The translations under genes were made by a program, and so were the position numbers. A model generated the notes under the pieces. That model saw only the letters and a list, made by a program, of their open reading frames with translations. It ran no database searches and had not been told where the DNA came from. From Candidatus Hermodarchaeota archaeon (GTDB taxonomy: Archaea > Asgardarchaeota > Lokiarchaeia > Sigyniarchaeales > SOKP01), in NCBI GenBank assembly GCA_048885925.1, contig JBHLLG010000014.1, positions 1-63,258 of the forward strand: 63,258 bases of DNA, written 5' to 3'. This document shows positions 8,711-41,210 of the stretch, one piece after another (positions within the stretch are counted from its first letter, which is position 1; each line of letters opens with the position of its first letter).

Positions 8711-9823
8711 ATGGTTTTTAGGATTCTTCGACCCGATTCTGGAACTGTATGGAAAAATGAAGAAATTCTTAAACGATTTTCAAAATATAAGGGAATAATC
8801 GATGGTACTCAAATTGCGAGATATTTAATTGCTAAAACTGTGGAATGTGAATATAATTCCGATGATCCAATAGATGATCTTGAAAAAAAATTAAAAGAAA
8901 CATCTCTAGAATTTAATGAAAAACTAAATAAAAAAATTGAAGAGAAAAAAAATTTTAAAGTTGCTACTATCTCTTATATTAATCTAGCAGAGACTCTTGC
9001 AAATAAATATCTCCAGAATTGTATCTTTTGCGAACGGCAATGTAATGTTAATAGGATTAATGGAGAAAAAGGTTTCTGTTTAATACCAGAGGATTCATAC
9101 ATTTCATCAGCATTCCTACATATGGGCGAAGAGCCTATTTTGATCCCGTCTGGCACAATTTTCTTCCAAGGATGTAATTTTGGATGCGCTTTTTGTCAAA
9201 ATTATGATATATCTCAAGCGTGGAAAAATAAGAAGGATTTAGAAGATGTCGCTCAGAAAGTCAATTCCAAAGAACTAGCTGGTATAGCTGAAAAGTTAGT
9301 TGACAGAGGGGCAATAAATATTAACTATGTTGGAGGAGATCCAATTCCTAACATTCATACAATCGTAGGAAGTTTAATTTTTCAACAAACTAATATTTGT
9401 CAATTATGGAATTCTAATTTTTTTTTAACAGAAAAATCATTATCTTTAATAATAGACTTTATTGATTTCTGGTTACCCGACTTTAAGTATGGAAATAATG
9501 AATGTGCCAAAAAGTATTCTGGAATTGATAATTATTTTGATATTGTTGCCAGAAACCATAAAAAAGTACATGACGAGGGAAGTGGAGAAATTTGTATTAG
9601 ACATTTAGTCATGCCGACGCATACTGAATGTTGTTCTAAGCCAATATTAGATTATGTGGCAAAGGAACTTCCAAACGTAGTAGTGAATATTATGGCTCAA
9701 TATCGACCTCAATTTCGTAGTTCCAAGTATCCTGAAATAAATCGTAGACCTGATCCGCAGGAGATGCAAGAAGTTAGAGATTATGCTGATAAATTAGGAA
9801 TATTTTGGAGACCTGTTTCTTAA
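8711..9823 (+). CDS. Radical SAM protein, PflX/PFL-activase-like
   Basis: CxxCxxxC (CIFCERQC), HMGEE, GCNFGCAFCQN, PDFKYGN, IRHLVMP. Confidence 0.88.
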   Translation: MVFRILRPDSGTVWKNEEILKRFSKYKGIIDGTQIARYLIAKTVECEYNSDDPIDDLEKKLKETSLEFNEKLNKKIEEKKNFKVATISYINLAETLANKYLQNCIFCERQCNVNRINGEKGFCLIPEDSYISSAFLHMGEEPILIPSGTIFFQGCNFGCAFCQNYDISQAWKNKKDLEDVAQKVNSKELAGIAEKLVDRGAININYVGGDPIPNIHTIVGSLIFQQTNICQLWNSNFFLTEKSLSLIIDFIDFWLPDFKYGNNECAKKYSGIDNYFDIVARNHKKVHDEGSGEICIRHLVMPTHTECCSKPILDYVAKELPNVVVNIMAQYRPQFRSSKYPEINRRPDPQEMQEVRDYADKLGIFWRPVS

Positions 9824-9879
9824 CAATAAATTGGCAGAATACAAATAAATTAAAAATAATTTTTCTTAAAAGGGATAAA

Positions 9880-11511
9880 ATGAATGACTATTTTTTAGGT
9901 TTAGACTGCTCAACTCAGAGCCTTACTGGAATAGTTATCGATTTTGAAGGAAAAAAAATAATAATCAATATTTCTTTGCCATATAGTGAATATTTTCCAG
10001 AATTTAATACAGATCACGGAATTATTAAGTTTGAAGATGAAAAAGTTGTTCATTCTTATCCTTTAATGTGGGTTGAAGCTTTGGATAAATTATTTTCCAT
10101 ATTTAAAGAAAAAAATTTAGACTTTAATTCAATTAAAGCCATTAGCGGAAGTGGACAGCAACATGGAACTATTTATTTAAATGAAAAATTTGAAATGGCT
10201 CTAAAAAATCTTAATCTTAATAAAAACCTAAAAGAGCAACTTGAAGATGTATTTACACGTGAAACAGCACCAATTTGGATGGATTCAAGTACAAATAAGC
10301 AATGTCAAGAAATTAGAGTAGCAATTGGAGGCATGTTAAAAACAATCAAGTTAACTGGTTCAGATACATTTGAACGATTCTCCGGACCTCAAATAAGAAA
10401 ATTTTACCAACAAAATCCCAAGGGATATAATAAAACGATGGTGATTCATTTAGTAAGTTCATTTATGGCATCTATTTTACTAGGAGAGAATTCACCAATT
10501 GACTATGGAGATGGTGCTGGAATGAATTTAATGGATATAAAGAAAAAAGTTTGGAGTGATAAAGCACTTAATGCTACAGCTCCTGAACTGAAACAAAAAC
10601 TCCCATCATTAGTAGAATCTGATAAAATCATTGGAAAAATATCACCATATTTTATTAAAAAATATGGATTCAATCATGATTGTTCTGTGTTACCCTGGTC
10701 AGGTGATAACCCAAATAGTTTAATTGGAGTTGGTTTAATTGGAAAAGGTAAAGTGGCTATCAGCTTAGGTACAAGTAATACATATTTTGGATTCATGAAA
10801 AAATTAACTATAGATCCACAAGGAGAGAGCCATGTCTTTATTTCTCCTACTGGTGACTATATGAGTTTAATTTGCTTTAAAAATGGGGCTTTAACAACAG
10901 AACTGATTAAAGATAAATTTAATTTAAATTGGGATGGTTTTTCTAAAATATTGGAAAATTCTTCTCCCGGAAATAAAGGAAAAATTATGTTACCTTACTT
11001 TTTTCCTGAAATCGTGCCTCAAGTATTAAAACCCAAAGTTTTTAGGTTTGGTTTCGATGAAAATGACAAAGAAGGAAATGTAAGGGCAATTATTGAATCC
11101 CAATTAATATCTATTCGTTTGCATTCTCAATGGACAAGGGAAAAGCCAGAAATCATTTATGTCACTGGAGGTGGTTCTAAAAATGAAGCTATTCTTCAAA
11201 TATTAGCTGATATTTTTAATGTAACAGTCATTCAATTTGATATGACTTCATCTGCTTGTTTAGGTGCGGCATTAAGAGCCGCTAAAGCTTATTATGATAA
11301 AATAAATCAAAATAAATCTTGGTTTGACATTGTACAACATTTTTTAGGATCAAAAGAAAGAGTTATAATGCCACGATCTAAATATAAAAAACTATATGAT
11401 GATATGGTTCAGTTATATAGAAAATATGAAGATTATGCAATACGTGGAGGAGAGAATCCAGAACAACAGCATCAAAATTTTATAGAATTATATTTTAAAG
11501 ATATTAATTGA
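9880..11511 (+). CDS. xylB: Xylulokinase, FGGY family (eukaryote-like XYLB/XKS1 subtype)
   Basis: LGLDCSTQS, SGSGQQHG, PIWMDSST, ERFSGPQIRK, HLVSSF, GDNPNS, SLGTS. Start placed at ATG 9880. Confidence 0.85.
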   Translation: MNDYFLGLDCSTQSLTGIVIDFEGKKIIINISLPYSEYFPEFNTDHGIIKFEDEKVVHSYPLMWVEALDKLFSIFKEKNLDFNSIKAISGSGQQHGTIYLNEKFEMALKNLNLNKNLKEQLEDVFTRETAPIWMDSSTNKQCQEIRVAIGGMLKTIKLTGSDTFERFSGPQIRKFYQQNPKGYNKTMVIHLVSSFMASILLGENSPIDYGDGAGMNLMDIKKKVWSDKALNATAPELKQKLPSLVESDKIIGKISPYFIKKYGFNHDCSVLPWSGDNPNSLIGVGLIGKGKVAISLGTSNTYFGFMKKLTIDPQGESHVFISPTGDYMSLICFKNGALTTELIKDKFNLNWDGFSKILENSSPGNKGKIMLPYFFPEIVPQVLKPKVFRFGFDENDKEGNVRAIIESQLISIRLHSQWTREKPEIIYVTGGGSKNEAILQILADIFNVTVIQFDMTSSACLGAALRAAKAYYDKINQNKSWFDIVQHFLGSKERVIMPRSKYKKLYDDMVQLYRKYEDYAIRGGENPEQQHQNFIELYFKDIN

Positions 11512-11660: not shown

Positions 11661-12767
11661 ATGACAATTAAAATAGAGGATGTCAAAGGAATTGGCAAAA
11701 AGATTGAAGTATTAAAAGAAGCTGGGATTGATTCAGTGGAAAAATTAGCAAGCTCAAAAACTGAAGATTTAACTAATTTAAAAGGAATTGGCAAAGCCAC
11801 AGCCGAAAAATTTATTGATAATGCTAAAGAATTACTACAACAAGAATCTAAGAAAGAACAAGCAGAACCGACTAAGAAGGAAGAAGACGAAGATGAAAAG
11901 AAAATTCAAGAAGAGATAAAAAAATTAAAAGAGAAGAAAGATAAATTACAAGGAAAAAAAGTAGAAGAAGGAGATTTTGTATTAGTAAAAATTACAGCAA
12001 GAACACAGAAAGGTCAGATTTTTAGAGTTTCATCTGAGGAAGATGCTAAAAAAGCTGGAATATTTGATGAGAAGAAAGCTAAGCAAGGATTTTATACTCC
12101 AGAGTTTGTTATAGTAGGAAAACCTGGATTTGTAAATGAAGGTCTTACTGAAACTATTAAAGAAATGAATTATTTTGAAAAAAAATCAGTAAGAATACCT
12201 CCCACCAAGGCTTTTGGAAAACGTGATCCCCAAAAGATCGAAAGAATAGGTATCAATAAATTTAGAAGATTAAATGAGGGGAAAAATCCTGAAATTGGAA
12301 AAGAGTTTGTTAAACAATCGCAAGGACAAGTCCAGAGAGGTATAATAACGAATGTTGTGCAGGGAAGGGTTATTATAGATTATAATCATCCTTTAGCAGG
12401 ACAGTCGATCGATTACAATTTAGAAATTATTGATAAAGTAGAAGATTTCAATGATAAAATTAATTATTTCATGATTTCTAAAGGAATTCCACAAGAAAAT
12501 GTTTCTGAATTTCAAGTTAGCTATCATCCAAAGAATAAAACTCTTGAGATCACCATTCCAAAAATGTTTCTTTTTCAAAACTTAACATATGTTAAATTTG
12601 GGTTGGCTATGGATCTTCAAACTCATATGGCAGAGGAGATAGATGATGTGAAATTTATTGAAATCTATGAAAAAATTCCTTTACCTCCTTCCCCGTCTGA
12701 ATCGGTAATGCAAAAAGTTAAAGAATTTAATAAAGAGAAAAATGAGAAGAAAGAAGCTGAGGAATAA
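11661..12767 (+). CDS. Archaeal long-type FKBP peptidyl-prolyl isomerase with N-terminal helix-hairpin-helix domain
   Basis: KGIG...KGIGKATA HhH motifs, then GDFV, IPPTKAFGKRD, IDYNHPLAG. Confidence 0.85.
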   Translation: MTIKIEDVKGIGKKIEVLKEAGIDSVEKLASSKTEDLTNLKGIGKATAEKFIDNAKELLQQESKKEQAEPTKKEEDEDEKKIQEEIKKLKEKKDKLQGKKVEEGDFVLVKITARTQKGQIFRVSSEEDAKKAGIFDEKKAKQGFYTPEFVIVGKPGFVNEGLTETIKEMNYFEKKSVRIPPTKAFGKRDPQKIERIGINKFRRLNEGKNPEIGKEFVKQSQGQVQRGIITNVVQGRVIIDYNHPLAGQSIDYNLEIIDKVEDFNDKINYFMISKGIPQENVSEFQVSYHPKNKTLEITIPKMFLFQNLTYVKFGLAMDLQTHMAEEIDDVKFIEIYEKIPLPPSPSESVMQKVKEFNKEKNEKKEAEE

Positions 12768-12783: not shown

Positions 12784-13749
12784 TTAATTAACTCGAATTT
12801 TACTGACTAGTTCTTGCTTTTTTCTTTCCTTTTGCTTTTTATACTCAGATTTCTTTTTTTGATAATAAGCCTTTTTTTTCTGAAATTCTATTCTTCTCTT
12901 CAAGGATTTTCGCTTTTTTTTTAAGTATTCCTTTTTTGCTTTTTTGAATTCTTTTTTAGCTTTTTTGAATTCTTTTTTAGCTTTTTTGTATTTTTTATAC
13001 TTTTGTTTTATTTTATATCGAAGATCTTTACTAATTTCTCCTATTCCCAATTCCTCCAATGTTTTCTTAAAGTCACGAAATGATTCAAATCTGATAACAG
13101 TAATTCCTAATTCTCTTGCTGGGACCAGATTTCTGATTTTGTCATCAATAAAAACACAATTTTTAGGTTTTGTATCCAATTTTTTTAAAACATATTTGTA
13201 TTTATCTATATCGGGTTTAATTAAACCTATTTCATTTGAAAGAAACACATGATCAAAACTACTATAAAATCCTTTTAACAAATTTGATTTAGCATGAAGA
13301 TCGTGAGTGTTTGACATTAAACTCACGGTATAATCTGCTTGATGTAGTCGTTCGATTATTTCTGCCATATCTGAAGAGAATTCAGTGACTTGAGAATAGA
13401 TTTCGAACCATATTTCTATATAATACTCAACATTTACCTTTTTTGGAGGTAATGCTCCATTACTTTTTTGATGTGGATAATAATACTTTTCAAAGATTTT
13501 CTCTAAAAATTCATGAGAAGAGATTCTTCCTGAGCTTAAACTTCTTTTAAGCTTCTTAATATATGAATTATTCTCACGTGGAATTGAGATATTTAAATCT
13601 GCTTCTATAATGTCAAATAAATTTTTTAAAACAAAAGTTTTCTCGATTAAAACACCTCCGAAATCAAAAATGAAATGACGGATTTTCCACAACCTAACTT
13701 TTTGTTTTTCACCATAAATTTTTGATTTCTTTATATCTTGAGTATTCAT
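12784..13749 (-). CDS. HAD-superfamily phosphatase with Lys-rich C-terminal tail
   Basis: FDFGGV (motif I), SNT, KP, FIDD; last ~75 aa are polybasic. Confidence 0.85.
   Translation of the reverse strand: MNTQDIKKSKIYGEKQKVRLWKIRHFIFDFGGVLIEKTFVLKNLFDIIEADLNISIPRENNSYIKKLKRSLSSGRISSHEFLEKIFEKYYYPHQKSNGALPPKKVNVEYYIEIWFEIYSQVTEFSSDMAEIIERLHQADYTVSLMSNTHDLHAKSNLLKGFYSSFDHVFLSNEIGLIKPDIDKYKYVLKKLDTKPKNCVFIDDKIRNLVPARELGITVIRFESFRDFKKTLEELGIGEISKDLRYKIKQKYKKYKKAKKEFKKAKKEFKKAKKEYLKKKRKSLKRRIEFQKKKAYYQKKKSEYKKQKERKKQELVSKIRVN
12938..12988. repeat. 21-bp tandem repeat (2 full copies plus a partial) encoding KKAKKEF
   Basis: GCTTTTTTGAATTCTTTTTTA at 12938 and 12959, partial copy at 12980. Confidence 0.85.
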
Positions 13750-13779
13750 TATCTTTGTATTTCTATCCTATAAAACCTT

Positions 13780-14583
13780 TTAATTATTTTGGTTATTAAT
13801 ATGTTTATGCATTGATTGTAAGATTAATTCACAAATTTTTTCTACGGGTGAAATGTTTTCAATTTTCCAATTGCTAAATTCTGGAAAACTCCCAACATCA
13901 ACAGTATATAATTTATTACTTTTATTTTCTCTTACAATATCAAAATGGCCAAATAAGGCATTTTCATTAAGATTATCTCTCCATTTTTTGATAATGTCTT
14001 TGATATCATTAGGGGTTTCAACTTTTTCCATCGGTACATGTTCATGAGATAATGGAGGTTTTACTAATACGCAAATCTGATCTTCTATGAAGTAGACATT
14101 ATAATGAATTCCTTCAACATATTTTTCTAGATATATTATTTCATTATTTTCTGAGGTAAAATCATTATAAAATTTAATCATTCTAACCCCTTTGCTACCA
14201 GATCCCATAATGGGTTTTAAGATTAATGGAAAATCTTCTTTCTCAAGTTTATTTTTCAAAGTTTTTTGAGTTCCTATGAAAATACCTGGTCTTAAAAGAC
14301 CATATTTTTTCATTAGGTAATGTGAATGGACACGATTTTTTTGTAAATAAGAGACTCGTGGATTTGGGAAGACTGGAATATTATTTGCTTCTAAAAAGTA
14401 GCCAGCATATATATAAAAAAGCCCTTTTGATTTTAAAATGTAAAAATCATTATCAAATAGAGATGAATTTATATTAAGTTCTTTCTGAGTATATATTTTA
14501 ACTTGATGGCCTTTATTTTCCAAACATTGTTTAATTTTTCCAGTAAGCATTATTTTTCTTTTCGATAGAATACCAATTTTCAT
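13780..14583 (-). CDS. ATP-grasp protein (RimK/ITPK1-like)
   Basis: PLILKPIMGSGSKGV, LEKYV, FGHFDIV, YTVDVGSFPEF. Confidence 0.78.
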   Translation of the reverse strand: MKIGILSKRKIMLTGKIKQCLENKGHQVKIYTQKELNINSSLFDNDFYILKSKGLFYIYAGYFLEANNIPVFPNPRVSYLQKNRVHSHYLMKKYGLLRPGIFIGTQKTLKNKLEKEDFPLILKPIMGSGSKGVRMIKFYNDFTSENNEIIYLEKYVEGIHYNVYFIEDQICVLVKPPLSHEHVPMEKVETPNDIKDIIKKWRDNLNENALFGHFDIVRENKSNKLYTVDVGSFPEFSNWKIENISPVEKICELILQSMHKHINNQNN

Positions 14584-14597
14584 TTTCTTAATAATAC

Positions 14598-15413
14598 CTA
14601 TTTTTTTACTTGTTCTATTAGGAAATCAGCAACAATTTTAGGTCCATTTTTAACATAATTAAAATTTGGTGTGCAATTTACATCAGTTAAATAAAATTGC
14701 TTATCTTTTGACTGAAGAAAGTCCATAGAAGTTACTTTCAAATCCATAATCTCCATAACTTTATGGCAATACTCATTTAATTCCTTAATTGCAGGAATTT
14801 TAGTTCTAGACTCCATCTTATTAGGATTAAATAAAACAGGTAATTGTCTATAATATAAAATTTTTTCACCAATTCCATATAACTTGTATTCCCATTCACT
14901 TTCAATGAATTTTTGGTAATAAAAATATCCATAACTTTTTTTTCCATCAACTTCTTCCAACGCTCGTTTATCAGCAACTCTTATATGATTTGATTCACCT
15001 AAAGTTAAAGGATCAAAACTATAATTATCTTGATCTATAATATTTTTAATAATAAAATCATTAAAAGTAGGAGAAAATCCTTTTGGATTTAATGAGAACT
15101 CTGGTACAGGAAGTCCAGCTCTTTTTAAAATGACACTGTTCAAATATCTGTTAATAGATAAATAGATACCTTTATAGGAGTTTATTACAGGGATAGATGA
15201 TTCTTCTTCAATTTGTTTTACAAGAGCTAAGACTAAATCTCCTTTCGCTTTTACAAAAAAAATATCCTCTTCAAATGTGTTTTTAGAACTATTTAGAAGA
15301 TATGATTCTTCAGTATAAATATTCACATCGGCTTTAAGTTGTAAGTATTTAACGAATTCTTCTACCTTATATTTCAAATGATATTCATCGATTATAATAC
15401 CGATCTTAATCAA
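14598..15413 (-). CDS. ATP-grasp protein (RimK/ITPK1-like)
   Basis: IPVINS, YQKFI, EYKLYGIG, SMDFL, LTDVNCTPNF. Confidence 0.78.
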   Translation of the reverse strand: MIKIGIIIDEYHLKYKVEEFVKYLQLKADVNIYTEESYLLNSSKNTFEEDIFFVKAKGDLVLALVKQIEEESSIPVINSYKGIYLSINRYLNSVILKRAGLPVPEFSLNPKGFSPTFNDFIIKNIIDQDNYSFDPLTLGESNHIRVADKRALEEVDGKKSYGYFYYQKFIESEWEYKLYGIGEKILYYRQLPVLFNPNKMESRTKIPAIKELNEYCHKVMEIMDLKVTSMDFLQSKDKQFYLTDVNCTPNFNYVKNGPKIVADFLIEQVKK

Positions 15414-15665
15414 AAAACTTACCTTTTTAGCCTTATCCTATTCTATTTAATAAAAAAAATTATTTAATTTAAATCCAATTGAAACTAAATCAGAAAAAGT
15501 ATAAGTTAAGATAAATTTATTATGTAAAAATAAAATAAACATTAATTTAATTTATTTTATAGTCAAAAATTAGTGTGTTCTAACGTATTTTACTAATATT
15601 ATAATCCATATATTTATATACCATTATTTATAATTTAATTATCAAAAATATAAAGGGTTTTTTGG

Positions 15666-16580
15666 GTGTCAAATAAGCTAAGTAGAATTTACATAGGTTC
15701 TATTTGCAATCGAGATCTTGAAATTTTTGAAGAGATCAAAAATTTCTGCAATAGAAACTACAATATTTCTATAGTTAATTTACTAAAAAAAGGTTCCAAT
15801 ACTTTTAGTGAAAAACATTTCAAAAAACAAATCAAGAAGTACCCCATTTCATTTATAATTGTTAAATTATTATCTGAAGAAGGTAATCAAGAAATTTATA
15901 GAACAATTAAAGAAATTACACCCAATATTCCTCTTTTAAATAATATTGATGCTGTTAAAACTTGTGAAAGTAGAAAAGAGACCTTTAGATTTATCGAAGA
16001 AAAATGTAAAAAAGTAAATGTTCCTCGCTCCTTTTATTCTATAAATGAAGCTTATGAAGCTTGTTCTAATGGAACCAAACTCGTCATTAAACTAAATAGG
16101 CATAATATTCCAGATTTGCCCCGAGATGGTAGGATTGTCGGTGTAGTTGAAAACCTAAATGATTTCTTAAGATTAACAAAAAATTATAAAGAAAATGAGT
16201 TATTTTTCCAAGAGTATTTAGGGAAATTTGAAATTGTATATAAAATATATATAATAGGTCGGTGGACAGTTTCAATAACTTCACATAACCGCCTACAACA
16301 TAATGAGAATTTATCTCCTTTAGAGTTAATTCATATTCGTGTCCCAATCGACAAACAATTAAAAAGACGAGTATTAAGATTAGGCAGAAAAATTGGACTA
16401 TCAATTTTTGGAATTGATTATGTGTTAGCAAGAGATGGAACTCCATATATCATAGATGTTAATGATTTTCCCAGTTTTAGAAGTGTTCCAGAAGCAGTGT
16501 CATTAATTTCTGATTTTATCTTTAACTTTTTATATTTACAACAACAATTATATAAGGTACCTGCTAGAGTTAAAGGTTAA
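15666..16580 (+). CDS. ATP-grasp protein resembling inositol-1,3,4-trisphosphate 5/6-kinase (ITPK1)
   Basis: FQEYL, YKIYIIG, LSIFGIDYV, IIDVNDFPSFRSV, matching the ITPK1 pattern LFGID..VIDIN.FPGY. Confidence 0.75.
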   Translation: MSNKLSRIYIGSICNRDLEIFEEIKNFCNRNYNISIVNLLKKGSNTFSEKHFKKQIKKYPISFIIVKLLSEEGNQEIYRTIKEITPNIPLLNNIDAVKTCESRKETFRFIEEKCKKVNVPRSFYSINEAYEACSNGTKLVIKLNRHNIPDLPRDGRIVGVVENLNDFLRLTKNYKENELFFQEYLGKFEIVYKIYIIGRWTVSITSHNRLQHNENLSPLELIHIRVPIDKQLKRRVLRLGRKIGLSIFGIDYVLARDGTPYIIDVNDFPSFRSVPEAVSLISDFIFNFLYLQQQLYKVPARVKG

Positions 16581-16605
16581 AATCTTACATTTAAAACAAA
16601 ATCAA

Positions 16606-17700
16606 TTATCTTTCTCTCTTGTTTTCTACAAACTCTAAAAGGTTTTTTTTTGCAATGTAATCTGCTAACTGCTCTGGAGGATGTTTAGCAAAGAATGAAC
16701 AGGCAGATTGAAGTATGCCTCCAATTTTTCTATCTTTTGCGATTTTACTTACTCTAATTGAATCTGTGATAATTCCTGCTGAATTATTTCCATCTTCTAC
16801 GAATAGAGTGATATCTATTCTTACTGGTGCACCTCCAAAAATGCGCCCTTCCAGTCTCATATAGGCTTCTTTTTGGTTTTTTAGAAATGGAATATAATCT
16901 ACTGCAGAAATTTGACAATTTACTGTATCTCTATTTTGTAAAAAGGCAGTTACTGCTTCAGTTTTAGATTGTCGTTTTCCTTCTTCATATCTTAAATAAC
17001 CATTGGGCATTGGCGTTAATAAATTGCAAAAGTCACTCGAACCACCCCAATCAAGTTGAATTGTTTTATCTAACATAGCTCCCCGCATTGGAAAGAGATT
17101 TGCTAATGTTCTATGAACAATAGTAGCTCCAATTTGTGATTTTACGTCATCTCCAATCAATGAAAGATTAGACTTCTCAGCTTTCTCAACTATTTCTGGA
17201 TCCTTGACTACACGAGAAGGCATTCCATTTACTACACATGATCCTGCTTCAAGTGCTTTCATTGCATAAAATTTGACTGCTTCATGAGATCCCGTAGGGA
17301 GTAGGATTATGGTGACATCAGTATTTCTCTTCTTTAGTTCATTAACAATATCAGCAGGTTCTTGATTATTATCTATCGGCACAATATTTTTAATATTGCT
17401 ATCTAATCCGTCCATTATTGGACCTTTAATTACAGGAGCATTTAAAAAATCAGGTTCAAAAAGTTTCATATTACAATTTGGTTCTTCAAAAATTGCTTTA
17501 CTTAAATCTTTTCCTACTTTATTTGAATTAACATCAATTCCCAGAACAAAATTTATGTCATTAATCTTATATTGGGTTATTTCTGGTAGGATCCCAATGA
17601 TTTTGTCGGGATTTTTCTTATAATTTTGAACGCCCTGAATCAAAGCAGATGCTACATCACCAACTCCTACAATAGCTACATTAATAAAATTATTCGCCAT
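16606..17700 (-). CDS. ino1: myo-Inositol-1-phosphate synthase
   Basis: VAIVGVG, LPTGS, IGDDVKSQIGATIVHR, QLDWGGSSDF, DYIPFL, EDGNNSAG. Confidence 0.92.
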   Translation of the reverse strand: MANNFINVAIVGVGDVASALIQGVQNYKKNPDKIIGILPEITQYKINDINFVLGIDVNSNKVGKDLSKAIFEEPNCNMKLFEPDFLNAPVIKGPIMDGLDSNIKNIVPIDNNQEPADIVNELKKRNTDVTIILLPTGSHEAVKFYAMKALEAGSCVVNGMPSRVVKDPEIVEKAEKSNLSLIGDDVKSQIGATIVHRTLANLFPMRGAMLDKTIQLDWGGSSDFCNLLTPMPNGYLRYEEGKRQSKTEAVTAFLQNRDTVNCQISAVDYIPFLKNQKEAYMRLEGRIFGGAPVRIDITLFVEDGNNSAGIITDSIRVSKIAKDRKIGGILQSACSFFAKHPPEQLADYIAKKNLLEFVENKRER

Positions 17701-17873
17701 GATATTTTCTATAATAAAATACTTATATTTAAATCATATTAAAATAAAGTAAATTTTAATAATTAGAAATATTGATACAAAAATCATTATTAAAATTGTA
17801 TATTTTTGAATTACTAAAATTCTAAATAACCCTTTAATTATCTTTCGGTAGACTTAGTTGAATTAAAAATTAA

Positions 17874-20321
17874 GTGGTTAGATTGGCATTTTTTACACAT
17901 ATTATAAATAATTTTCTATTAATTTTTGTTTCTTTAATTTTGTTCTTAATTGTAATATATTTACTTTTACCTTGGTTCTTTGATAAACTTGTTTCTCCAA
18001 AATTTAACGCTACATATAGATATAACCCTAAGGATTTTAAAAAAAAAGATAAAATCGAACCTTTTTTAAGTCAATTTAAAATAGAAAATATAGAATTTAA
18101 TAAAAGCAATGGTCAATATATAATTTCATTCGGAAAAAGAGGGCAATTAATAAATGGTATTGTAAAAGTAAGAAATGAACTTTGCAATTATTTCAATAAT
18201 AATCCATTAAAAGAAAAATCTAAAACACTTAAATTACTTTCTATTAATGAAGAGACTGGAAATGATAAATTAGGAAATTTTAAGTCAATTTATTTTCAAT
18301 ATCGATTAGAAGATATTGAACAAAATGTAAATGTTTTAATTAAAAATTATCATAGTCAAAATTTTATTACTTTTGAGCTCTCTATTCCTGATGGTTTAGA
18401 CAATTCAGCCACAGGAAAATATTCTGAACTTATCACTTCATTTCCTTCCTTTATAAACTTAAATTCTAATATGAAAACCTTTACTTTTAGAAATGCTATT
18501 TTTTGTCCTCCCACAAAAAAATTTAACATCACTTCTGCTCCAGTTCTTTTTTATGATGATGATTTAAACTGTTTCATTATATCACCTTTAGATTCTTTTT
18601 TGAATACTGCAATCTCTAAAGATGAGAATAATAGAATAAGTTGTGGAATTCAAGGAGCAATAAAAAAAATACCGAAAAATTTTACTCAAAAGTTTATACT
18701 TCTTTTTGATAAAGGAATTAATCAGTCTATAGAACATCTTGGTAATATTCTATTAAAATATCATAATTCTGAGCGAAAAAGTCTTTATGCAAATGTAGTG
18801 ACTTCTTATTTAGGATTCTGGACAGATAATGGTGCATATTATTACTATAAAACAGAAAAAGGAATGAATTATGAAGATACAATGGTTTCAATAAAAAATT
18901 ATTTTGAAGAAAATAACATCCCTATAGTATATTATAATTTTGATAGTTGGTGGTACCTGAAACATACAAATAAATTAATAGCAAAAATTTTAAAACCGCT
19001 AATAAGATTAATGGGAGGAGGTCTATTTGGAAATACATTACGTTGGGAAGTAGATCCTAAGAATTTTTTGACAGATTTAAAAACATTCCATCAAAATCGA
19101 TTCCAAAAGCCAATTACAGCTCATAATCGTCGGTGGGATGCAAGGTCACCTTACGTTGAGAAATTTGAATTTGAAACATATAAAAATCACGCTATACCAC
19201 TTAAAAAAGAATTTTGGGAATGGTTAATGAAACATGCAAGAGAAAGTGGAATTGAAGTTTATGAACAAGATTGGATGAAAAACCAAATTGTAAGTATACC
19301 ACTATTAAGAAAAAACTTCAATGCTCAAGAAGAATGGTTAAGCAGCATGGCCACTGCAGCTAAAGAACAAGGTATTGATGTTTATTATTGTATGCAAACT
19401 CCTGGACTTCTTTTGTATAGTATTAAACATTCGAATATTAACATTTCTCGATGTTCCGGAGATTACAATCCTAGATGGCCAATTTCATATAGATTTGTTC
19501 ATTCTACTCAAACGAATATACTTTTTAACGCTATAGGAATTAATTCACATCCAGATGTTTTTCGATCAAGAACAATAGAGAATGTGAAATTTAGACCATT
19601 TGGAGAACGATTTCCTGATTTTCAATGTCTCTATCAAATCTTAAATGCAGGAGTTATAGCCCCAGGAGATAAAAAAGAAAATATTAATTGGCCACTTTTA
19701 AAAAAAACTTGTAGAGATGATGGATTATTATTAAAACCAGATAAAAGTTTAACAGCAAATGATTTAATGTTTAAAAAACATCGCAAATATTACATCTGCG
19801 ACACCTATACTAAAATTAATAATTTAATCTGGAGGTATATTTTCATAACTAATATCTGGCCTAATAGAGTTAAAGAAAAATTTTTCTCATTAAAAGAGTT
19901 AGGGTATGAAAAAAGCGAATACATCTTATTTGACTTTCTATCTGGTGATATCCAGAGGGTTAACATCGATAATTCTATAGAAATTGGGAAATTGCATAAA
20001 TATGAATATAAATATTTCATTTTATGTCCTATAACTGCAAGTGGGATGGCTTTAATTGGATGTCCTGATAAATTTGTTACATGTTCAAAAAAACTAATTA
20101 AAAAGTTTACCTCTACTGAAGATTCAATTAGTACTTTAATAGAAAATATAAAAGGCTCAATAGTTAAATTATTAATTTACTCAGAAAAAAAGCCCTCTTC
20201 TATTCAAGTTGATCACAAATCTTTAAACACATGGATTTATAATGAATTATCAAAGATAATAGCATTAACTCTAAAATTTGAAGCTTCTGGTAAAAAAGAA
20301 ATATTAATTCAAAAAAAATGA
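17874..20321 (+). CDS. Membrane-anchored glycoside-hydrolase-like (clan D-type TIM barrel) protein
   Basis: N-terminal TM helix; GFWTDNGAYYYY, NFDSWWY, YEQDW, YCM, RCSGDY, GLLLKPD. Confidence 0.5.
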   Translation: MVRLAFFTHIINNFLLIFVSLILFLIVIYLLLPWFFDKLVSPKFNATYRYNPKDFKKKDKIEPFLSQFKIENIEFNKSNGQYIISFGKRGQLINGIVKVRNELCNYFNNNPLKEKSKTLKLLSINEETGNDKLGNFKSIYFQYRLEDIEQNVNVLIKNYHSQNFITFELSIPDGLDNSATGKYSELITSFPSFINLNSNMKTFTFRNAIFCPPTKKFNITSAPVLFYDDDLNCFIISPLDSFLNTAISKDENNRISCGIQGAIKKIPKNFTQKFILLFDKGINQSIEHLGNILLKYHNSERKSLYANVVTSYLGFWTDNGAYYYYKTEKGMNYEDTMVSIKNYFEENNIPIVYYNFDSWWYLKHTNKLIAKILKPLIRLMGGGLFGNTLRWEVDPKNFLTDLKTFHQNRFQKPITAHNRRWDARSPYVEKFEFETYKNHAIPLKKEFWEWLMKHARESGIEVYEQDWMKNQIVSIPLLRKNFNAQEEWLSSMATAAKEQGIDVYYCMQTPGLLLYSIKHSNINISRCSGDYNPRWPISYRFVHSTQTNILFNAIGINSHPDVFRSRTIENVKFRPFGERFPDFQCLYQILNAGVIAPGDKKENINWPLLKKTCRDDGLLLKPDKSLTANDLMFKKHRKYYICDTYTKINNLIWRYIFITNIWPNRVKEKFFSLKELGYEKSEYILFDFLSGDIQRVNIDNSIEIGKLHKYEYKYFILCPITASGMALIGCPDKFVTCSKKLIKKFTSTEDSISTLIENIKGSIVKLLIYSEKKPSSIQVDHKSLNTWIYNELSKIIALTLKFEASGKKEILIQKK

Positions 20322-20330
20322 CCTAAATTT

Positions 20331-21236
20331 ATGTTGAATAATATGGTAAAAAAAATTATTTTCTCAGCTACTCACGATCATATAGTTATTAAACATGTAA
20401 TTAAAGAATTAAAAAAAGCAAAAGAATTCAATTTAATGCTCCACGATCCTACAAAGGATTTCTTTAATCTTTCAAATATGCCAAAATCATTTACAGATGC
20501 AGATATAATAATTGTAAAAGTCAGAAATGAATGTTCTCTTGATATATTACACTTTGCTAAAATTTATAATATACCTACTTTACATGATATAGATACAATT
20601 TTGATGTGTAAGAATAAAATAGCGCTTGATTTTGCCTTAAGGAGAGTAATAAATTATTATTTAAAAGATCTCAAAAAATTTTTAGTTCCTGATTCTTGGA
20701 TTCAAACCTTAATAAATGTCAATAGGTTTAAGAAATGGGCTCTAGATAAATTGCCAATTGTAATTAAGAGTCATTATCAGCATGACAAATATAATAGATT
20801 TAATTTTCTTGTTCAAAAAATTGAAGAAGTAGATAAATTCTGCAAAAAATATAAACAATTTTTATACTACAATGTATATATTCAAGAATTTATTGAGTGT
20901 GATGGAATTGAAAGAAAAGTTTATGTGATTGGAGATAAAGTTTTTGGTATCAAAAGAGAAAATCCAATTTATCTATACTTAAGAGAAAAACCAGAAGATA
21001 TTGATGTAGATTTGATTGAACGAGAACAATTTAAAATCACTAAGGAAATCATAAATTTATCAAGAATATTATCAAAAGAGTTAAAACTTAAGATTTTTGG
21101 ATTTGATCTTGTTCAACCAATAAATAATGATAAATTATACATTATAGATTTAAATGACTTCCCAAGCTTTAAAGGAATTCCAAATATTGAGAAGGAGTTA
21201 ACTGAGTATCTAAAAAATTATGTTTTAGAGTTTTAA
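20331..21236 (+). CDS. ATP-grasp protein resembling ITPK1
   Basis: PIVIKS, IQEFIECDG, KVYVIGD, IFGFDLV, IIDLNDFPSFKG. Confidence 0.78.
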   Translation: MLNNMVKKIIFSATHDHIVIKHVIKELKKAKEFNLMLHDPTKDFFNLSNMPKSFTDADIIIVKVRNECSLDILHFAKIYNIPTLHDIDTILMCKNKIALDFALRRVINYYLKDLKKFLVPDSWIQTLINVNRFKKWALDKLPIVIKSHYQHDKYNRFNFLVQKIEEVDKFCKKYKQFLYYNVYIQEFIECDGIERKVYVIGDKVFGIKRENPIYLYLREKPEDIDVDLIEREQFKITKEIINLSRILSKELKLKIFGFDLVQPINNDKLYIIDLNDFPSFKGIPNIEKELTEYLKNYVLEF

Positions 21237-22078
21237 GGTATTATTAGAAAGGGAATTATTATAATGTAAGCAAATATTCCATATAAAATACAAAAGTAGC
21301 CAAAACTAATTTTTTGAGCAATTTGTAGTAGTAATTCTATACTTAGATAACCTATTAGAAAAGCAACTAAGGTAACACTAATAATTGAAATAGTATCAAG
21401 AGTTCCAAGAACCGATCCTCCTCCAAAGATTAAATCAACTAAAATGGATGCAATAGCAACAGGAACAGACATTAAAAAACTCAAACGTAATGCAGTGTCT
21501 TGATTATATCTTTCGAATAATATAATTGAAACAGTAACTCCTGATCGCGAAATTCCTGGTAAAATAGATACGCCTTGAATAAGCCCAGATAATGTACTGT
21601 CTTTTCGGATAATTTTTTGAGGTACATCTTCTAAAAAACTTTTTCCATATATTTTTCTTGTTTTGAGTAAGATAATCCCTGTTATAATCAATAATCCACA
21701 AACTACTAATGTTATTAAATCTCCTTGAAATGCAGTAAATGCTTCTAAAATTATAATCCTAAAAATGAAATAAAGCGGTAAAGCAGTAATTCCAGTACCT
21801 AATGTTGCATAAATTAACCAGTTTCTCTTTCTAATATCAATATTTTCAATAATATATGTTTTAGGTATAAGACTTTTAAATATTTTAATAAAATCAGTTC
21901 TGAATTTTAATAGAACTGCTAGGGTTGTACCTAAATGAAGCCATATGGAAAGACTGAATGCCTGCTCAGCAGGAATATTGAATAAATTCATAGAAACAAT
22001 CATAACTTGTCCGCTGGATGATATCGGTAACCATTCAAATAAACCCTGAAGAATTGCGATTATTAAGTATTCAATCAT
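21233..22078 (-). CDS. uppP: Undecaprenyl/polyprenyl-diphosphate phosphatase (BacA/UppP family)
   Basis: QGLFEWLPISSSG, HLGT, PGISRSG, SFLMSVP. Confidence 0.9.
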   Translation of the reverse strand: MIEYLIIAILQGLFEWLPISSSGQVMIVSMNLFNIPAEQAFSLSIWLHLGTTLAVLLKFRTDFIKIFKSLIPKTYIIENIDIRKRNWLIYATLGTGITALPLYFIFRIIILEAFTAFQGDLITLVVCGLLIITGIILLKTRKIYGKSFLEDVPQKIIRKDSTLSGLIQGVSILPGISRSGVTVSIILFERYNQDTALRLSFLMSVPVAIASILVDLIFGGGSVLGTLDTISIISVTLVAFLIGYLSIELLLQIAQKISFGYFCILYGIFAYIIIIPFLIIP

Positions 22079-22081
22079 AAT

Positions 22082-22558
22082 TTAAAACTCATATTTATTT
22101 AATCCTTTCATTAAACTATCAATAATTTCATCTCTCACCTTCCTAAAAAGCTCTTCGTTCATCGAAGGATCTTCAATATCTCCACTTCCGCCTCCAAATT
22201 CTTTAATTGTTAAAACTTTTTTGTTATTTACATTAAAAAAATCACTGATTTCTTTCTTGTGTTGATTAGTTAATGTTAAAATCAGATCTGCATCTTTTAT
22301 AAATTCAGGATGTTTTTTCAAATCAAACGATAAAGCAATATCAGATAACTTAATCCCTATTTCTTCCATGACTAATCTTGCATCTAAAGATATTATCATC
22401 CCATCTCTAGCATTAGAAGAAATGCCACCTGATTTAACAGAAACATTTAAATTAAACTTAGAGAAAAAATCTCTTAAAAATCCTTCTGCAATTCGACTTC
22501 TGGCAGTGTTAACGGAACACACAACTAAAATAGATTTATAGGGAAATTTTTTATCCAT
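22082..22558 (-). CDS. Low-molecular-weight protein-tyrosine phosphatase / ArsC-like
   Basis: VVCSVNTARS (CX5R P-loop), ADLIL, DIEDP. Confidence 0.85.
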   Translation of the reverse strand: MDKKFPYKSILVVCSVNTARSRIAEGFLRDFFSKFNLNVSVKSGGISSNARDGMIISLDARLVMEEIGIKLSDIALSFDLKKHPEFIKDADLILTLTNQHKKEISDFFNVNNKKVLTIKEFGGGSGDIEDPSMNEELFRKVRDEIIDSLMKGLNKYEF

Positions 22559-29807: not shown

Positions 29808-30335
29808 ATGGCTCAAAAGCAATATGAAGGAAAAGATCATGTATCAGTTCTTTCTTTTAAAATAGGTTGGGAAGAGTTCTGCATTGATCTTTATGATGTA
29901 AAAGAAATTATTCAAGCAGGTCAAATTCGAAAATTACCAAAAGGGTTAGATTACATTGATGGCATTTATAATTATAGAGGCGAGATTATTCATGTAATTA
30001 ATCTAAAGAAACGTTTAAATCTAGATGAATATCTTTTGTATTCAAAGCATTCATCTTATGAACAAGATTTAGGTGCTACAAAAAAATACATTATCATTTT
30101 AAAAGTTGAGAACGATCTAATAGGGTTCTATACAGATAGTATTATCAGTATAGACCATATTGATTCAGCTGAGATTGTTGGATTAAGTCCAATTTTTCAG
30201 ACCAGCGTTGCAATCGAATTTATTAAGGGTATAATTAATTTTAAAGAACGACCAAGAGTTATGCTTGATTTAAGTAAAATTTTTAGTGAAGTTGAGAAAT
30301 TCAAAATCCAACAAGATTTGTCATCTTTAACATAA
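29808..30335 (+). CDS. cheW: Chemotaxis coupling protein CheW
   Basis: FKIGWEEFCIDL..VKEII, IDGIYNYRGEIIHVINL, IGFYTDSI. Confidence 0.9.
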   Translation: MAQKQYEGKDHVSVLSFKIGWEEFCIDLYDVKEIIQAGQIRKLPKGLDYIDGIYNYRGEIIHVINLKKRLNLDEYLLYSKHSSYEQDLGATKKYIIILKVENDLIGFYTDSIISIDHIDSAEIVGLSPIFQTSVAIEFIKGIINFKERPRVMLDLSKIFSEVEKFKIQQDLSSLT

Positions 30336-30362
30336 AATCAAATAAAAAAAGGAGTTGATAAA

Positions 30363-30743
30363 ATGACAAAAAACGAGAAGAAAAAGGTCCTAATAGTTGA
30401 TGATGCACAGTTCACTCGAAACATGTTGAAGAATATAATAAATAAAATCGATGACATCGAAGTTATCGGTGAGGCTTCTAATGGTGACGAAGCTATCTCT
30501 TTATACAAGAAACTAAACCCTGATTTAGTTACCATGGATTTAGTGATGCCATCTAAAGGTGGGATTGAGGCAACAGAAGAGATACTGAAAGTAAATCCTA
30601 AAGCATTGATAGTAGTAGTATCCGCTTTAGGTCAAGAAGCTTTGGTTTTAGAAGCAGCAAAAAAAGGAGCAAAGGATTTTATTCAAAAGCCATTCAAAAC
30701 CGAACAAATAGTGGAAGTTATGGACCGAATATTAAAGAAATAA
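30363..30743 (+). CDS. cheY: Response regulator CheY
   Basis: LIVDDAQFTR, PDLVTMDLVMP, VSALGQ, DFIQKPF; directly upstream of cheA. Confidence 0.93.
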   Translation: MTKNEKKKVLIVDDAQFTRNMLKNIINKIDDIEVIGEASNGDEAISLYKKLNPDLVTMDLVMPSKGGIEATEEILKVNPKALIVVVSALGQEALVLEAAKKGAKDFIQKPFKTEQIVEVMDRILKK

Positions 30744-30783
30744 ATACAGTTAGATAAAATAAATATAAATTTAAGGTGATTAT

Positions 30784-32859: not shown

Positions 32860-32916
32860 TTTTTTTAAAAAAAAACAAGATTTATCAAATGAAGAAAAAA
32901 ATGGAGGAAAAATAGA

Positions 32917-34923: not shown

Positions 34924-34967
34924 AAATTAAAATGAAATAAAAAGTCAAGAAAAAAAGGAGGAAAATT

Positions 34968-35807
34968 ATGAAACTACAATTTTATGAAACAATGTATGAT
35001 AAATCAAAAGAATATCTTTCATATCTTTGTGAACAAATTTTACCCCAATTCACGGATAGCGAATTAAAGTTTTTTTTAGAAGATATTATAGAAACAAAGA
35101 GTACTGGGAAAAAAAAGGCAAAGTCAGAAGGTTTTGATAAGATTGGGGACGATACTGGGAAACTCGCAGATCTCTCGAAATTAAAGCCAGAAGAATTTAA
35201 ACCTTTATTTCAGGTTTTTATAAGCAGAGAAATAAATGATAGGAATTCTGTAAAATGGCGCTTTTATCAATATCTTAAATACATTTCGGATTTAAAAATA
35301 AAATCAGTAAAGATCAATCGAGATCAAAATCTAGATCGATTAATTGATTTTATTATCGAAACAGAAGAGAAACAAATTCTTTTTGTCTTATGTTATGATA
35401 TGATAGAATTAAATGATTATGACAAAGCATTAAAGGAAATGAACGAATTTTCGAAAAACCAAAACCTTCTTCCTGATAGAATTGTTTTTGCAACAAACAA
35501 GTCATTTCGAAACATACCAATAGATATTTCTATTAAGGTAGGTAATACAGAAGTAATACCAGAGTTATGGGTTGAATGGATTGAAGAAAGTTGTCCTTTT
35601 AATAGAGAAGACTTATTAATCGTTAATAACTCCGATCTCAAACTTGCTGGGTTCAATTTCACGAGTACAGATGATTTATTGAAGTATGTTTTTAAATATT
35701 CAAAAGGTGGACAAGTTTCAATTTATAGACAAGTAGATTTTTTTACTGAAGTTTCTGATGAACAACCTGAAGTGGAATTAATTTGGAAAGGTATAATGTT
35801 AAAATGA
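34968..35807 (+). CDS. Uncharacterised protein in the che cluster (possible degenerate PD-(D/E)XK-like fold)
   Basis: 279 aa; GGAGG SD at 34957-34961; LIDFIIET..ILFVLC..PDRIVFAT pattern. Confidence 0.65.
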   Translation: MKLQFYETMYDKSKEYLSYLCEQILPQFTDSELKFFLEDIIETKSTGKKKAKSEGFDKIGDDTGKLADLSKLKPEEFKPLFQVFISREINDRNSVKWRFYQYLKYISDLKIKSVKINRDQNLDRLIDFIIETEEKQILFVLCYDMIELNDYDKALKEMNEFSKNQNLLPDRIVFATNKSFRNIPIDISIKVGNTEVIPELWVEWIEESCPFNREDLLIVNNSDLKLAGFNFTSTDDLLKYVFKYSKGGQVSIYRQVDFFTEVSDEQPEVELIWKGIMLK

Positions 35808-35850
35808 AAATTAATCTAAAAAATTAGCAGATAAGGATGAGGTAAAAAAT

Positions 35851-37824: not shown

Positions 37825-37943
37825 GAGTTAAATTTAATTTAATCCATATTTATTTTTTTTTAAAATTTTCATGAATCAAAATAGAATATCCAAATTAGAT
37901 AAAAACATCTATGTAAAATATCAAAAAAAGCCTTTGAATCAAT

Positions 37944-38468
37944 ATGTTGAAAACCAGCTATTATGATTACATTTATAAAGTAGATGGTGAAACTGTTAAG
38001 CTTAGACCCGAAAAAATCTTTGTTCCTGATGATGTTTATTTAATTATAGATAAAGAATTAAAAATAATTTGGATATGGGCGGGTAGTCATTCACGTTTAT
38101 TCCATCGTTATATGGCTGCAAATTGGGCAGGAAAACTCAAAACTAAGAAGAAATTTTTTAATTTTAAATATGAAGTGATTAAACAAGGCATAGAACCCTC
38201 TGAATTTCACATTATTTTTAAAGAAATTAAGGAAAATCGTGCTGATTTAAATTATCCCGGACAATCACGAAATGTTTTCATTAAAAATGAATCATCAGGA
38301 ACTATTGATTTATCAGAAAAGCCCGGGGGTTTGGATTTATCAAAATCAGTAAAATCACATATAATGAAGATTTTATCTGAAATTAAAGAAATGCAATTAC
38401 ATATAAAATATTCTCTTGATCATATCCAACAGCGTTATGAAGAAATTGAAAAATTATTGGAAAGATAA
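37944..38468 (+). CDS. Single gelsolin-like domain protein with C-terminal coiled coil
   Basis: DDVYLIID..IWIWAGSHS..A..A..IKQGIEPSEF matches the gelsolin repeat consensus D.FILD...IF.W.G..S...QG.E...F. Confidence 0.75.
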   Translation: MLKTSYYDYIYKVDGETVKLRPEKIFVPDDVYLIIDKELKIIWIWAGSHSRLFHRYMAANWAGKLKTKKKFFNFKYEVIKQGIEPSEFHIIFKEIKENRADLNYPGQSRNVFIKNESSGTIDLSEKPGGLDLSKSVKSHIMKILSEIKEMQLHIKYSLDHIQQRYEEIEKLLER

Positions 38469-38480
38469 AAGTGTTTAGAA

Positions 38481-40608: not shown

Positions 40609-40632
40609 TTAATCAAACAAAAGTTAAATTTT

Positions 40633-41178: not shown

Positions 41179-41210
41179 TCTTTAAATTATTTATTATGTA
41201 AATATTCGAG

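What the first reader, a model, noticed from the sequence alone, without database searches (positions are those of the whole stretch)
12784..21236. Inositol-phosphate gene cluster: ino1, four ATP-grasp/ITPK1-like kinases and a HAD phosphatase
Seen: ino1 is surrounded by four divergent ATP-grasp paralogs, two with clear ITPK1-type C-terminal motifs (FG.D...IID.NDFPSF), plus a HAD phosphatase. Established: Ino1 makes inositol monophosphate from glucose-6-phosphate; ITPK1 can phosphorylate it in the lipid-independent route to inositol polyphosphates; ITPK1-like genes have been noted in Asgard archaea. Inference: a clustered, stepwise archaeal pathway for making and turning over inositol polyphosphates.
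Basis: partly seen in the sequence, partly recalled or inferred. Interest (0 to 1): 0.75.

Follow-up and report, generated by a model that had tools for sequence, protein, structure and literature searches.

The report
Archaeal inositol-kinase cassette with extra pair
This Loki-type archaeon carries an inositol-phosphate synthase gene between two relatives of the human inositol kinase ITPK1, a layout published in 2019, plus a conserved pair of related but untested enzymes; the synthase, one kinase-like gene and the pair also sit together in two unrelated microbes, so the set likely makes phosphorylated inositol and likely moves between lineages.

Summary
The genes are real and at the stated coordinates, but only two of the four ATP-grasp genes (AG3, 15666-16580; AG4, 20331-21236) are ITPK1-family. 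ino1 flanked by two such genes is the Lokiarchaeum LcIK/IPS arrangement of Desfougères 2019, where one kinase partly restored InsP6 in plc1-deleted yeast. This scan has also reported the cluster before in other genomes (8 earlier notes). What my tests add: (1) ino1+AG3+AG2+AG1 recur, reshuffled, on a Thermoplasmatota-like contig and an IS256-flanked, bacterial-looking contig; AG4, the HAD and the unmentioned 815-aa glycosidase-like gene do not. (2) The cassette's Ino1 is its own clade with a QLDWGG motif and all catalytic lysines kept. (3) AG2 keeps the kinase-type Lys and Asp-x-Asn; AG1 lacks both the Lys and the Asn. (4) PF05770 hits 80 of 90 same-family genomes, 3 of 9 in a sister family, 0 of 200 other Asgard genomes. 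Best reading: Ino1 makes Ins3P, AG3/AG4 likely phosphorylate it, AG2-AG1 is a likely coupled accessory step, the HAD is a local add-on and the glycosidase a passenger. Four stepwise kinases plus turnover is not shown.

The parts
12784..13749 (-). HAD-IA hydrolase (DxG motif I) with a polybasic C-terminal tail; lineage-specific add-on, substrate unknown
   Evidence: TIGR01509 44.9 bits (cut-off 29.4); TIGR02247 85.6 (below 125.4). D29/G31 in 49 of 50 orthologues; tail of 81 aa holds 41 K+R. Present in 47 of 62 complete loci.
13780..14583 (-). AG1: ATP-grasp protein with an altered active site (no ITPK1 Lys199 equivalent; Asp-x-Gly in place of Asp-x-Asn); cassette gene, lies directly after AG2
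   Evidence: Model pLDDT 92.3; best folds ArgX/LysX, Z 23.9, rmsd 2.7, 255 aligned. G231 in 64 of 65, position 162 variable. PF05770 at E<=0.001 in 5 of 33 members.
14598..15413 (-). AG2: divergent ATP-grasp protein that keeps kinase-type K177, D231, D244, N246; cassette gene; likely kinase, family membership unproven
   Evidence: All four residues in 66 of 66 orthologues and in L082 and L083. PF05770 0 of 34, RimK 15 of 34 members. Fold search ties MdnB, RimK and Asp1 kinase at Z 11.3-11.4.
15666..16580 (+). AG3: ITPK1-family ATP-grasp protein; cassette gene; probable orthologue of the tested LcIKC (inferred)
   Evidence: PF05770 30.1 bits, 37 of 37 members. Top 10 PDB profile hits are ITPKs. 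Conserved Arg at position 156 in 51 of 74 rows, the number the 2019 paper gives for LcIKC.
16606..17700 (-). Ino1 (myo-inositol-phosphate synthase) of a distinct QLDWGG clade; the only PF01658 match in this genome
   Evidence: Closest structure M. tuberculosis 1GR0, E 8.5e-81. One match in a 95% complete genome. Clade support SH-aLRT 100, stem 1.22, quick tree. K242, K246, K277, K339, D223, D303 kept.
17874..20321 (+). 815-aa GH36/raffinose-synthase-like protein with an N-terminal hydrophobic segment; passenger in a variable slot
   Evidence: No Pfam or NCBIfam family. Atlas feature hits to raffinose synthase/melibiase clusters at 0.94-0.96. Fills the AG4-ino1 slot in 8 of 59 loci; the slot is empty in 19.
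20331..21236 (+). AG4: the most ITPK1-like protein (K196, R209, D259, D273, N275); resident gene, also found without the cassette; likely start at 20343
   Evidence: PF05770 49.6 bits, 30 of 30 members. Top 9 PDB profile hits are ITPKs. Residues in 59 of 59 orthologues. Stands without ino1/AG3/AG2/AG1/HAD in 11 of 20 stretches fetched on purpose.

Best explanation
The locus likely encodes a lipid-independent route from glucose 6-phosphate to phosphorylated inositols, built from a four-gene cassette (ino1, AG3, AG2, AG1) that sits next to a resident ITPK1-like gene (AG4). Step 1 (inferred from family and kept catalytic lysines): Ino1 cyclises glucose 6-phosphate to Ins3P. Step 2 (inferred; a Loki homologue partly restored InsP6 in yeast): AG3 and AG4 add phosphates from ATP. 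Step 3 (inferred from gene linkage and motifs only): AG2 likely acts as a further kinase, with AG1 as an ATP-binding partner of altered or no catalytic activity. The HAD is a local addition that may remove phosphate. The glycosidase-like gene is a passenger. Shown here: gene content, order, motifs and distribution. Not shown: any activity, product, expression or protein contact.
For: AG3/AG4: PF05770 above cut-off and ITPK top hits. Published: LcIKC partly rescues plc1-deleted yeast, and LcIK genes flank IPS (PMC6900528). The same four genes lie together in different order on L083 (archaellin, glyS; its Ino1 is 94% identical to P0487, whose cluster holds proteins named Thermoplasmatota) and as one same-strand run on L082 (GC 0.63, IS256, formate dehydrogenase gamma, HrpB). 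AG2 and AG1 overlap by 4 bp in both. All four ATP-grasp proteins have Asp at the second metal position, and AG2/3/4 have the ITPK1 Lys199 equivalent; the genome's ordinary RimK-like protein has Arg and Glu there. This Ino1 is the sole PF01658 match in a genome whose CDP-alcohol transferases include three that best match archaetidylinositol phosphate synthase, below cut-off.
Against: AG1 and AG2 fail the PF05770 cut-off and match ArgX/LysX/RimK at least as well. AG3 has Ser, AG2 Gln and AG1 Lys in the register of ITPK1 Arg212. PF05770 also marks bacterial clusters shared with RimK, and the one bacterial AG4-like plasmid gene I opened has no inositol gene beside it, so the family label alone is weak. 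AG4 persists without an adjacent ino1, and 2 of 10 AG4-bearing genomes tested showed no PF01658 match. The published rescue was partial and relied on yeast's own kinases and sphingolipid-derived Ins1P. The Ino1 replaces two Asn residues that PMC5614600 lists as conserved. Within Loki, unrelated neighbours (BacA, FKBP, radical SAM) are equally syntenic, so only 2 outside loci carry the linkage argument.
Confidence: 0.6

Rival explanations
1. AG3/AG4 are inositol kinases, but AG2 and AG1 are RimK/LysX-like amide or ester ligases that decorate an inositol-derived or peptide substrate, so the cassette makes a modified inositol compound and not simply higher InsPs.
For: AG1 folds best on ArgX/LysX (Z 23.9). 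PDB profile top hit of both is ArgX. RimK matches 15 of 34 AG2 members. NCBIfam hits are ligase families.
Against: All ligase hits are far below cut-off (e.g. TIGR00768 30.9 and 40.2 bits against 143.4). Neither has the Arg and Glu-x-Asn of the genome's RimK-like protein. No carrier-protein gene was seen among ORFs of 90 aa or more; a short LysW-like gene would be missed.
Confidence: 0.17
2. One reading: four kinases act stepwise on Ins3P and the HAD turns the products over, all as one pathway.
For: Tight linkage in the family. AG2 keeps kinase residues. AG1 has invariant basic residues and an FP.F tail like ITPKs. The HAD orthologue was not found in 5 of 5 cassette-less genomes (best 27-33% hits).
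Against: AG1 lacks the Lys and Asn. HAD is missing from 15 of 62 complete loci and both outside loci. AG4 is absent from both outside loci and occurs alone elsewhere.
Confidence: 0.1
3. The QLDWGG Ino1 makes a different cyclitol phosphate (as the MIPS homologue in PDB 6K96 makes a five-membered one), and the kinases act on that.
For: Long-stem clade. Asn229 and Asn233 (M. tuberculosis numbering, PMC5614600) become Asp217 and Ser221. Some genomes carry canonical ino1 genes as well (L047, L104).
Against: Far closer to 1GR0 (E 8.5e-81) than to 6K96 (E 3.2e-43). It is the only PF01658 match in this genome. Asp217 comes with Asn275 in place of a usual Asp, and the same Asp/Asn swap appears in a second divergent Ino1 group, which looks compensatory (inference).
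Confidence: 0.09
4. The genes are neighbours by shared ancestry only and have no common pathway.
For: Long-range synteny of unrelated genes in this family; genes on both strands.
Against: Four genes stay together in reshuffled order in two unrelated hosts and are missing as a block from the same chromosomal slot in 11 stretches.
Confidence: 0.04

Closest known systems
Lokiarchaeum LcIKA-LcIKD / IPS loci (Desfougères et al. 2019, PMC6900528)
   Same: An IPS gene flanked on each side by an ITPK1 homologue (Lokiarch_32240/32250/32260 and 53530/53540/53550; supplement text). This matches AG4-ino1-AG3 with an empty slot, seen in 19 of 59 loci.
   Different: The paper's four LcIKs are two pairs around two IPS genes; here there is one ino1 and four different ATP-grasp families. 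AG2, AG1, the HAD, the distinct Ino1 clade and the non-Asgard copies are not in the passages I read. I could not obtain the LcIK sequences, so orthology is inferred.
Eukaryotic ITPK1 / ITPK (PF05770)
   Same: ATP-grasp fold, the K-V-Y/F-V strand and the FG-x-D...D-x-N-x-FP motif in AG3 and AG4.
   Different: Significant matches cover only the C-terminal part. His167 appears to be Arg (register inferred); Arg212 is kept only in AG4. Substrate range is untested.
RimK / LysX / ArgX amino-acid ligases
   Same: Same size and overall fold; best structural match for AG1.
   Different: The ligase-type Arg and Glu-x-Asn are replaced by Lys or a variable residue and Asp-x-Asn/Gly; scores are far below curated cut-offs.
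Actinobacterial-type Ino1 (M. tuberculosis, PDB 1GR0; TIGR03450)
   Same: Full-length match, catalytic lysines and aspartates kept.
   Different: QLDWGG in place of QLNxGGN; 299.5 bits against a cut-off of 638; linked to kinase-like genes.

Membership tests
ITPK1 (PF05770) | PF05770 above curated cut-off: AG3, AG4 | tested here: met
   30.1 and 49.6 bits against 23; 37 of 37 and 30 of 30 members at E<=0.001
ITPK1 (PF05770) | PF05770 above curated cut-off: AG1, AG2 | tested here: not met
   21.4 and 12.8 bits; 5 of 33 and 0 of 34 members at E<=0.001
ITPK1 (PF05770) | Lys199 equivalent and Asp...Asp-x-Asn metal motif: AG2, AG3, AG4 | tested here: met
   66 of 66, 72-73 of 73 and 59 of 59 orthologues; joint alignment. 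Lys199 from PMC6900528; Asp281/Asp295/Asn297 numbering is recalled (not found).
ITPK1 (PF05770) | Lys199 equivalent and Asp-x-Asn: AG1 | tested here: not met
   Position 162 is L/N/T/I; G231 in 64 of 65
ITPK1 (PF05770) | Arg212 equivalent | tested here: inconclusive
   Arg in AG4 only; Ser in AG3 (Arg three places on in 68 of 73), Gln in AG2, Lys in AG1; sequence register only
ITPK1 (PF05770) | Closest solved fold is ITPK1 (AG1, AG2 models) | tested here: inconclusive
   AG2: ligases and kinases tie. AG1: ArgX/LysX lead the list. AG3/AG4 were not folded.
ITPK1 (PF05770) | ATP-dependent phosphorylation of inositol phosphates | not testable with these tools
   Published only for a homologue, LcIKC, as partial yeast rescue (PMC6900528)
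RimK/LysX/ArgX ligases | Curated family cut-off | tested here: not met
   TIGR00768 30.9/40.2/19.6/36.9 bits against 143.4; TIGR02144 at most 38.1 against 275.6
RimK/LysX/ArgX ligases | Arg in the central strand and Glu-x-Asn metal motif (motif recalled; control is the genome's own RimK-like protein on C94) | tested here: not met
   Control reads R..D,E,N; the window's AG1-AG4 have Asp at the Glu position and no Arg in the strand
MIPS / Ino1 | PF01658 domain and catalytic K-x-x-x-K, block B Lys, block A Asp, block D Asp | tested here: met
   80.1 bits; K242, K246, K277, D303, D223 mapped and Table 3 of PMC5614600
MIPS / Ino1 | Two conserved Asn of block D | tested here: not met
   D217 and S221; A. 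fulgidus MIPS also lacks the second Asn (PMC5614600 Table 3)
MIPS / Ino1 | Glucose 6-phosphate to Ins3P activity | not testable with these tools
   needs an assay
HAD-IA phosphatase | Motif I nucleophile Asp, motif II Ser, motif IV Asp-Asp | tested here: met
   D29, S146, D202, D203; second Asp of motif I is Gly, as in YihX (recalled)
HAD-IA phosphatase | Specificity for inositol phosphates | not testable with these tools
   Two separate inositol monophosphatase-family genes exist elsewhere in the genome

The most novel reading that the evidence does not exclude
A mobile four-gene prokaryotic cassette (a dedicated QLDWGG Ino1, one ITPK1-like kinase and an AG2-AG1 kinase/pseudokinase pair of an undescribed family) makes highly phosphorylated or pyrophosphorylated inositols without lipids in Loki archaea, Thermoplasmatota and at least one bacterium. 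ITPK1-like genes would then be a patchy, transferable prokaryotic trait of one Loki order and not an ancestral Asgard feature, which would reopen where eukaryotes got ITPK1.
Probability: 0.25. Interest if true: 0.8.

Novelty: new variant of a known kind. Interest (0 to 1): 0.42.

Why it matters
Inositol polyphosphates are treated as a eukaryotic hallmark, and the Loki ITPK1 genes are the cited prokaryotic exception. If the cassette makes higher InsPs, it gives a four-gene minimal system that can be tested in E. coli or yeast, and AG2/AG1 would be a new kinase type. The narrow range in Asgard (0 of 200 genomes outside one order) and the copies in unrelated hosts bear on the claim that InsP signalling began in Asgard ancestors. 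The core observation itself is published, so the value lies in these extensions.

Tried and rejected
Complex prediction of AG2 with AG1 was not available, so their contact is untested. Fold searches did not separate kinase from ligase for AG2; no ITPK1 chain is among the 50 rows listed for AG1, which does not exclude the family. No RNA holder listed. I could not find the LcIK/IPS accessions (KKK...) among the listed members of 10 clusters, so orthology rests on layout and Arg156 numbering; that numbering also fits 7 of 60 AG4 rows. The metagenome scan with distant AG1 homologues gave 3 loci from 94 pattern matches, one of them Loki-like; the context of P0021 (named Proteobacteria) and other distant AG1 homologues was not obtained. 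Plasmid searches gave no cassette-type Ino1 (best 45% identity among the 25 of 109 records listed) and mostly RimK-named hits. PDB sequence search with the 815-aa protein gave nothing significant. The sigma-70 promoter scan was at chance level (63 against 58.8 +/- 7.2) and does not suit archaea. The careful Ino1 tree did not finish; the quick tree is quoted. The ATP-grasp tree is FastTree only, holds no eukaryotic ITPK1, and leaves AG2 unplaced. Rejected: galactinol/raffinose chemistry as part of the pathway, because the glycosidase-like gene is present upstream in 12 of 80 loci and swaps with transporter-like and other genes. Literature searches listed no paper on AG2/AG1, the QLDWGG clade or non-Asgard copies; most subscription papers are not in the library, figures were not visible, and the supplements of the 2026 preprint could not be seen and may hold a wider ITPK1 tree.
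Full report
What is there. They lie on both strands in at least four units. The 80 loci fetched with this Ino1 come mostly from records titled Promethearchaeota, at 73-89% identity, and the window also encodes a Ras/Rab-like GTPase and a UFL1/PCI protein, so the host is a Loki-type Asgard archaeon. The genome is 95% complete.

What is already known. PMC6900528 (I read section 6, selected passages and the text of all three parts of the supplement; figures not visible) names four Lokiarchaeum ITPK1 homologues, states that two pairs flank two IPS genes, and reports partial restoration of InsP6 in plc1-deleted yeast by LcIKC. The locus tags run kinase-IPS-kinase twice. That equals AG4-ino1-AG3 with nothing between AG4 and ino1, the commonest state in my loci (19 of 59). 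The paper gives Arg156 for LcIKC; the conserved Arg is at 156 in 51 of 74 AG3 rows and at 152 in 101 of 120 AG4 homologues, so LcIKC is more likely AG3-type (inference). A 2026 preprint (10.64898/2026.05.08.723234; passages only) lists ITPK1 among families with Asgard sister groups. PMC8024741 and PMC7695695 (passages) repeat the Loki finding. Earlier notes of this scan describe the same cluster in other genomes; I used them as leads and retested what I could.

The four ATP-grasp proteins are not equivalent. AG3 and AG4 pass PF05770 (37 of 37 and 30 of 30 members; the alignments used about half of the orthologues held) and their profiles rank ITPK structures first. AG1 and AG2 do not pass (5 of 33 and 0 of 34) and rank ArgX first. 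Predicted structures confirm the ATP-grasp fold. AG1 fits ArgX/LysX best (Z 23.9, rmsd 2.7, 255 aligned); AG2 ties among ligases and the Asp1 kinase (Z 11.3-11.4). Residues are more telling. All four have Asp where the genome's own RimK-like protein has Glu; AG2, AG3 and AG4 have Lys where it has Arg. These are invariant or nearly so in 66, 73 and 59 orthologues. AG1 lacks that Lys and has Gly for the Asn (64 of 65). In a fast tree of 128 proteins AG3 and AG4 fall in one group (support 91), AG1 joins a wider Asp-x-Gly family, and AG2 is unplaced. So two are ITPK1-family, one works plausibly like a kinase without passing the family test, and one has an altered site.

The unit of inheritance is smaller than the span. 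Inside the family, synteny says little because unrelated genes are equally syntenic. Two outside loci are informative. L083 carries AG3, AG2, AG1 and ino1 among archaellin and glyS genes, and its Ino1 is 94% identical to a protein whose cluster is named Thermoplasmatota. L082 carries AG3-ino1-AG2-AG1 on one strand between IS256 sequences on a GC 0.63 contig with HrpB and formate dehydrogenase gamma genes; it is a single metagenome contig and could be misjoined. Identities to the window proteins are 26-38% for the ATP-grasp proteins and 53-63% for Ino1. Neither locus shows AG4, the HAD or the glycosidase-like gene. Conversely, in 11 of 20 stretches chosen for a lone AG4 hit or a distant hit, AG4 lies near FKBP with no cassette between them (genera g2, g3, g5, g8, g11). 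The HAD is present in 47 of 62 complete loci, and the AG4-ino1 slot is empty (19), holds a transporter-like gene alone (15) or with two more genes (9), the glycosidase-like gene (8) or others (8) of 59 (transporter label by eye).

The Ino1 is a marked clade. All 79 cassette Ino1s counted plus 7 more shown have QLDWGG, and none of 46 other Asgard Ino1-like rows does. Both sets are biased: one search word held the motif, and the others were mostly the best PF01658 scorers. The clade has support 100 and a stem of 1.22 in a quick tree that includes L082 and L083. Catalytic lysines and aspartates listed in PMC5614600 (passages and Table 3) are kept; the two block-D Asn are not. PMC11348189 (passages) calls the first Asn distal to the site. 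Because this is the sole PF01658 match in a genome with likely inositol-lipid synthases, ordinary Ins3P synthesis is the likelier function.

Range. Among 300 sampled genomes of the phylum (80% complete or more), PF05770 matched 80 of 90 others of the same family, 3 of 9 of a sister family and 0 of 200 others; the AG4 profile gave 83, 3 and 0 (includes AG3 cross-hits); AG3 orthologues 67 of 90 and 0 of 209; AG2 at E below 1e-50, 66 of 90 and 0 of 209 (my count). Ino1 of some kind is in 283 of 300. These are 'not found in those searched': only a few first-look candidates per genome are scored and distant members could be missed.

Mechanism and verdict. Most likely Ino1 makes Ins3P, AG3 and AG4 phosphorylate it, and AG2 with AG1 performs a linked further step (0.6). 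Every chemical step is inferred; the only experiment is the published partial yeast rescue by a homologue. Against this reading stand the ligase-like scores of AG1/AG2, the breadth of PF05770/RimK grey-zone proteins in bacteria and lone AG4 genes. The core is known; the four-gene cassette, the AG2-AG1 pair, the Ino1 clade and the narrow Asgard range were not found in seven literature searches. I rate it a new variant of a known kind, interest 0.42.

Noticed in passing
window 29808-44316: Chemotaxis gene run (CheW, CheY, CheA, CheC-CheW, CheR, CheB, CheD, CheC, second CheB) with a Ras/Rab-like GTPase fusion (41927-42868, Ras domain at residues 152-310) embedded between cheC and the second cheB.
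   Followed up: no
window 53927-56296: 789-aa protein with DDRGK, UFL1 (E3 UFM1 ligase) and PCI matches.
   Followed up: no
window 57309-61964: Three GT87 glycosyltransferase genes in a row with one unassigned ORF between the first two.
   Followed up: no
window 21233-22558: BacA undecaprenyl-diphosphatase-like and low-molecular-weight phosphatase genes directly beside AG4, conserved with it in most related loci and also where the cassette is absent.
   Followed up: partly
window 11661-12767: FKBP-type isomerase with an N-terminal helix-hairpin-helix domain; fixed right-hand border of the cassette slot.
   Followed up: partly
L104:12981-16456 and L047: Three ino1-like genes in tandem: a divergent ALDVGG type lacking several catalytic residues, a canonical type and the QLDWGG type. 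Most other Asgard genomes show two PF01658 matches; a catalytic plus non-catalytic pair is possible.
   Followed up: partly
L086, L091, L103, L094 (AG4 genes): Some AG4 orthologues read DLNEFPG in place of DLNDFPG, and those of genus g2 have also lost the conserved His-Gln-His stretch, suggesting relaxed function where the cassette is absent.
   Followed up: no
P0014, P0021, P0022, P0034-P0090: A wider family of Asp-x-Gly ATP-grasp proteins related to AG1, some with a cysteine-containing C-terminal extension; one is named Proteobacteria. Context unknown.
   Followed up: partly
L083:400-1512: A ribokinase-family gene lies 3.7 kb from the Thermoplasmatota-like cassette; an archaeal inositol kinase belongs to this family (PMC6900528 supplement reference 1), link untested.
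   Followed up: no
window 9805-11511: FGGY sugar kinase present here but not seen beside FKBP in any of the 80 related loci.
   Followed up: no
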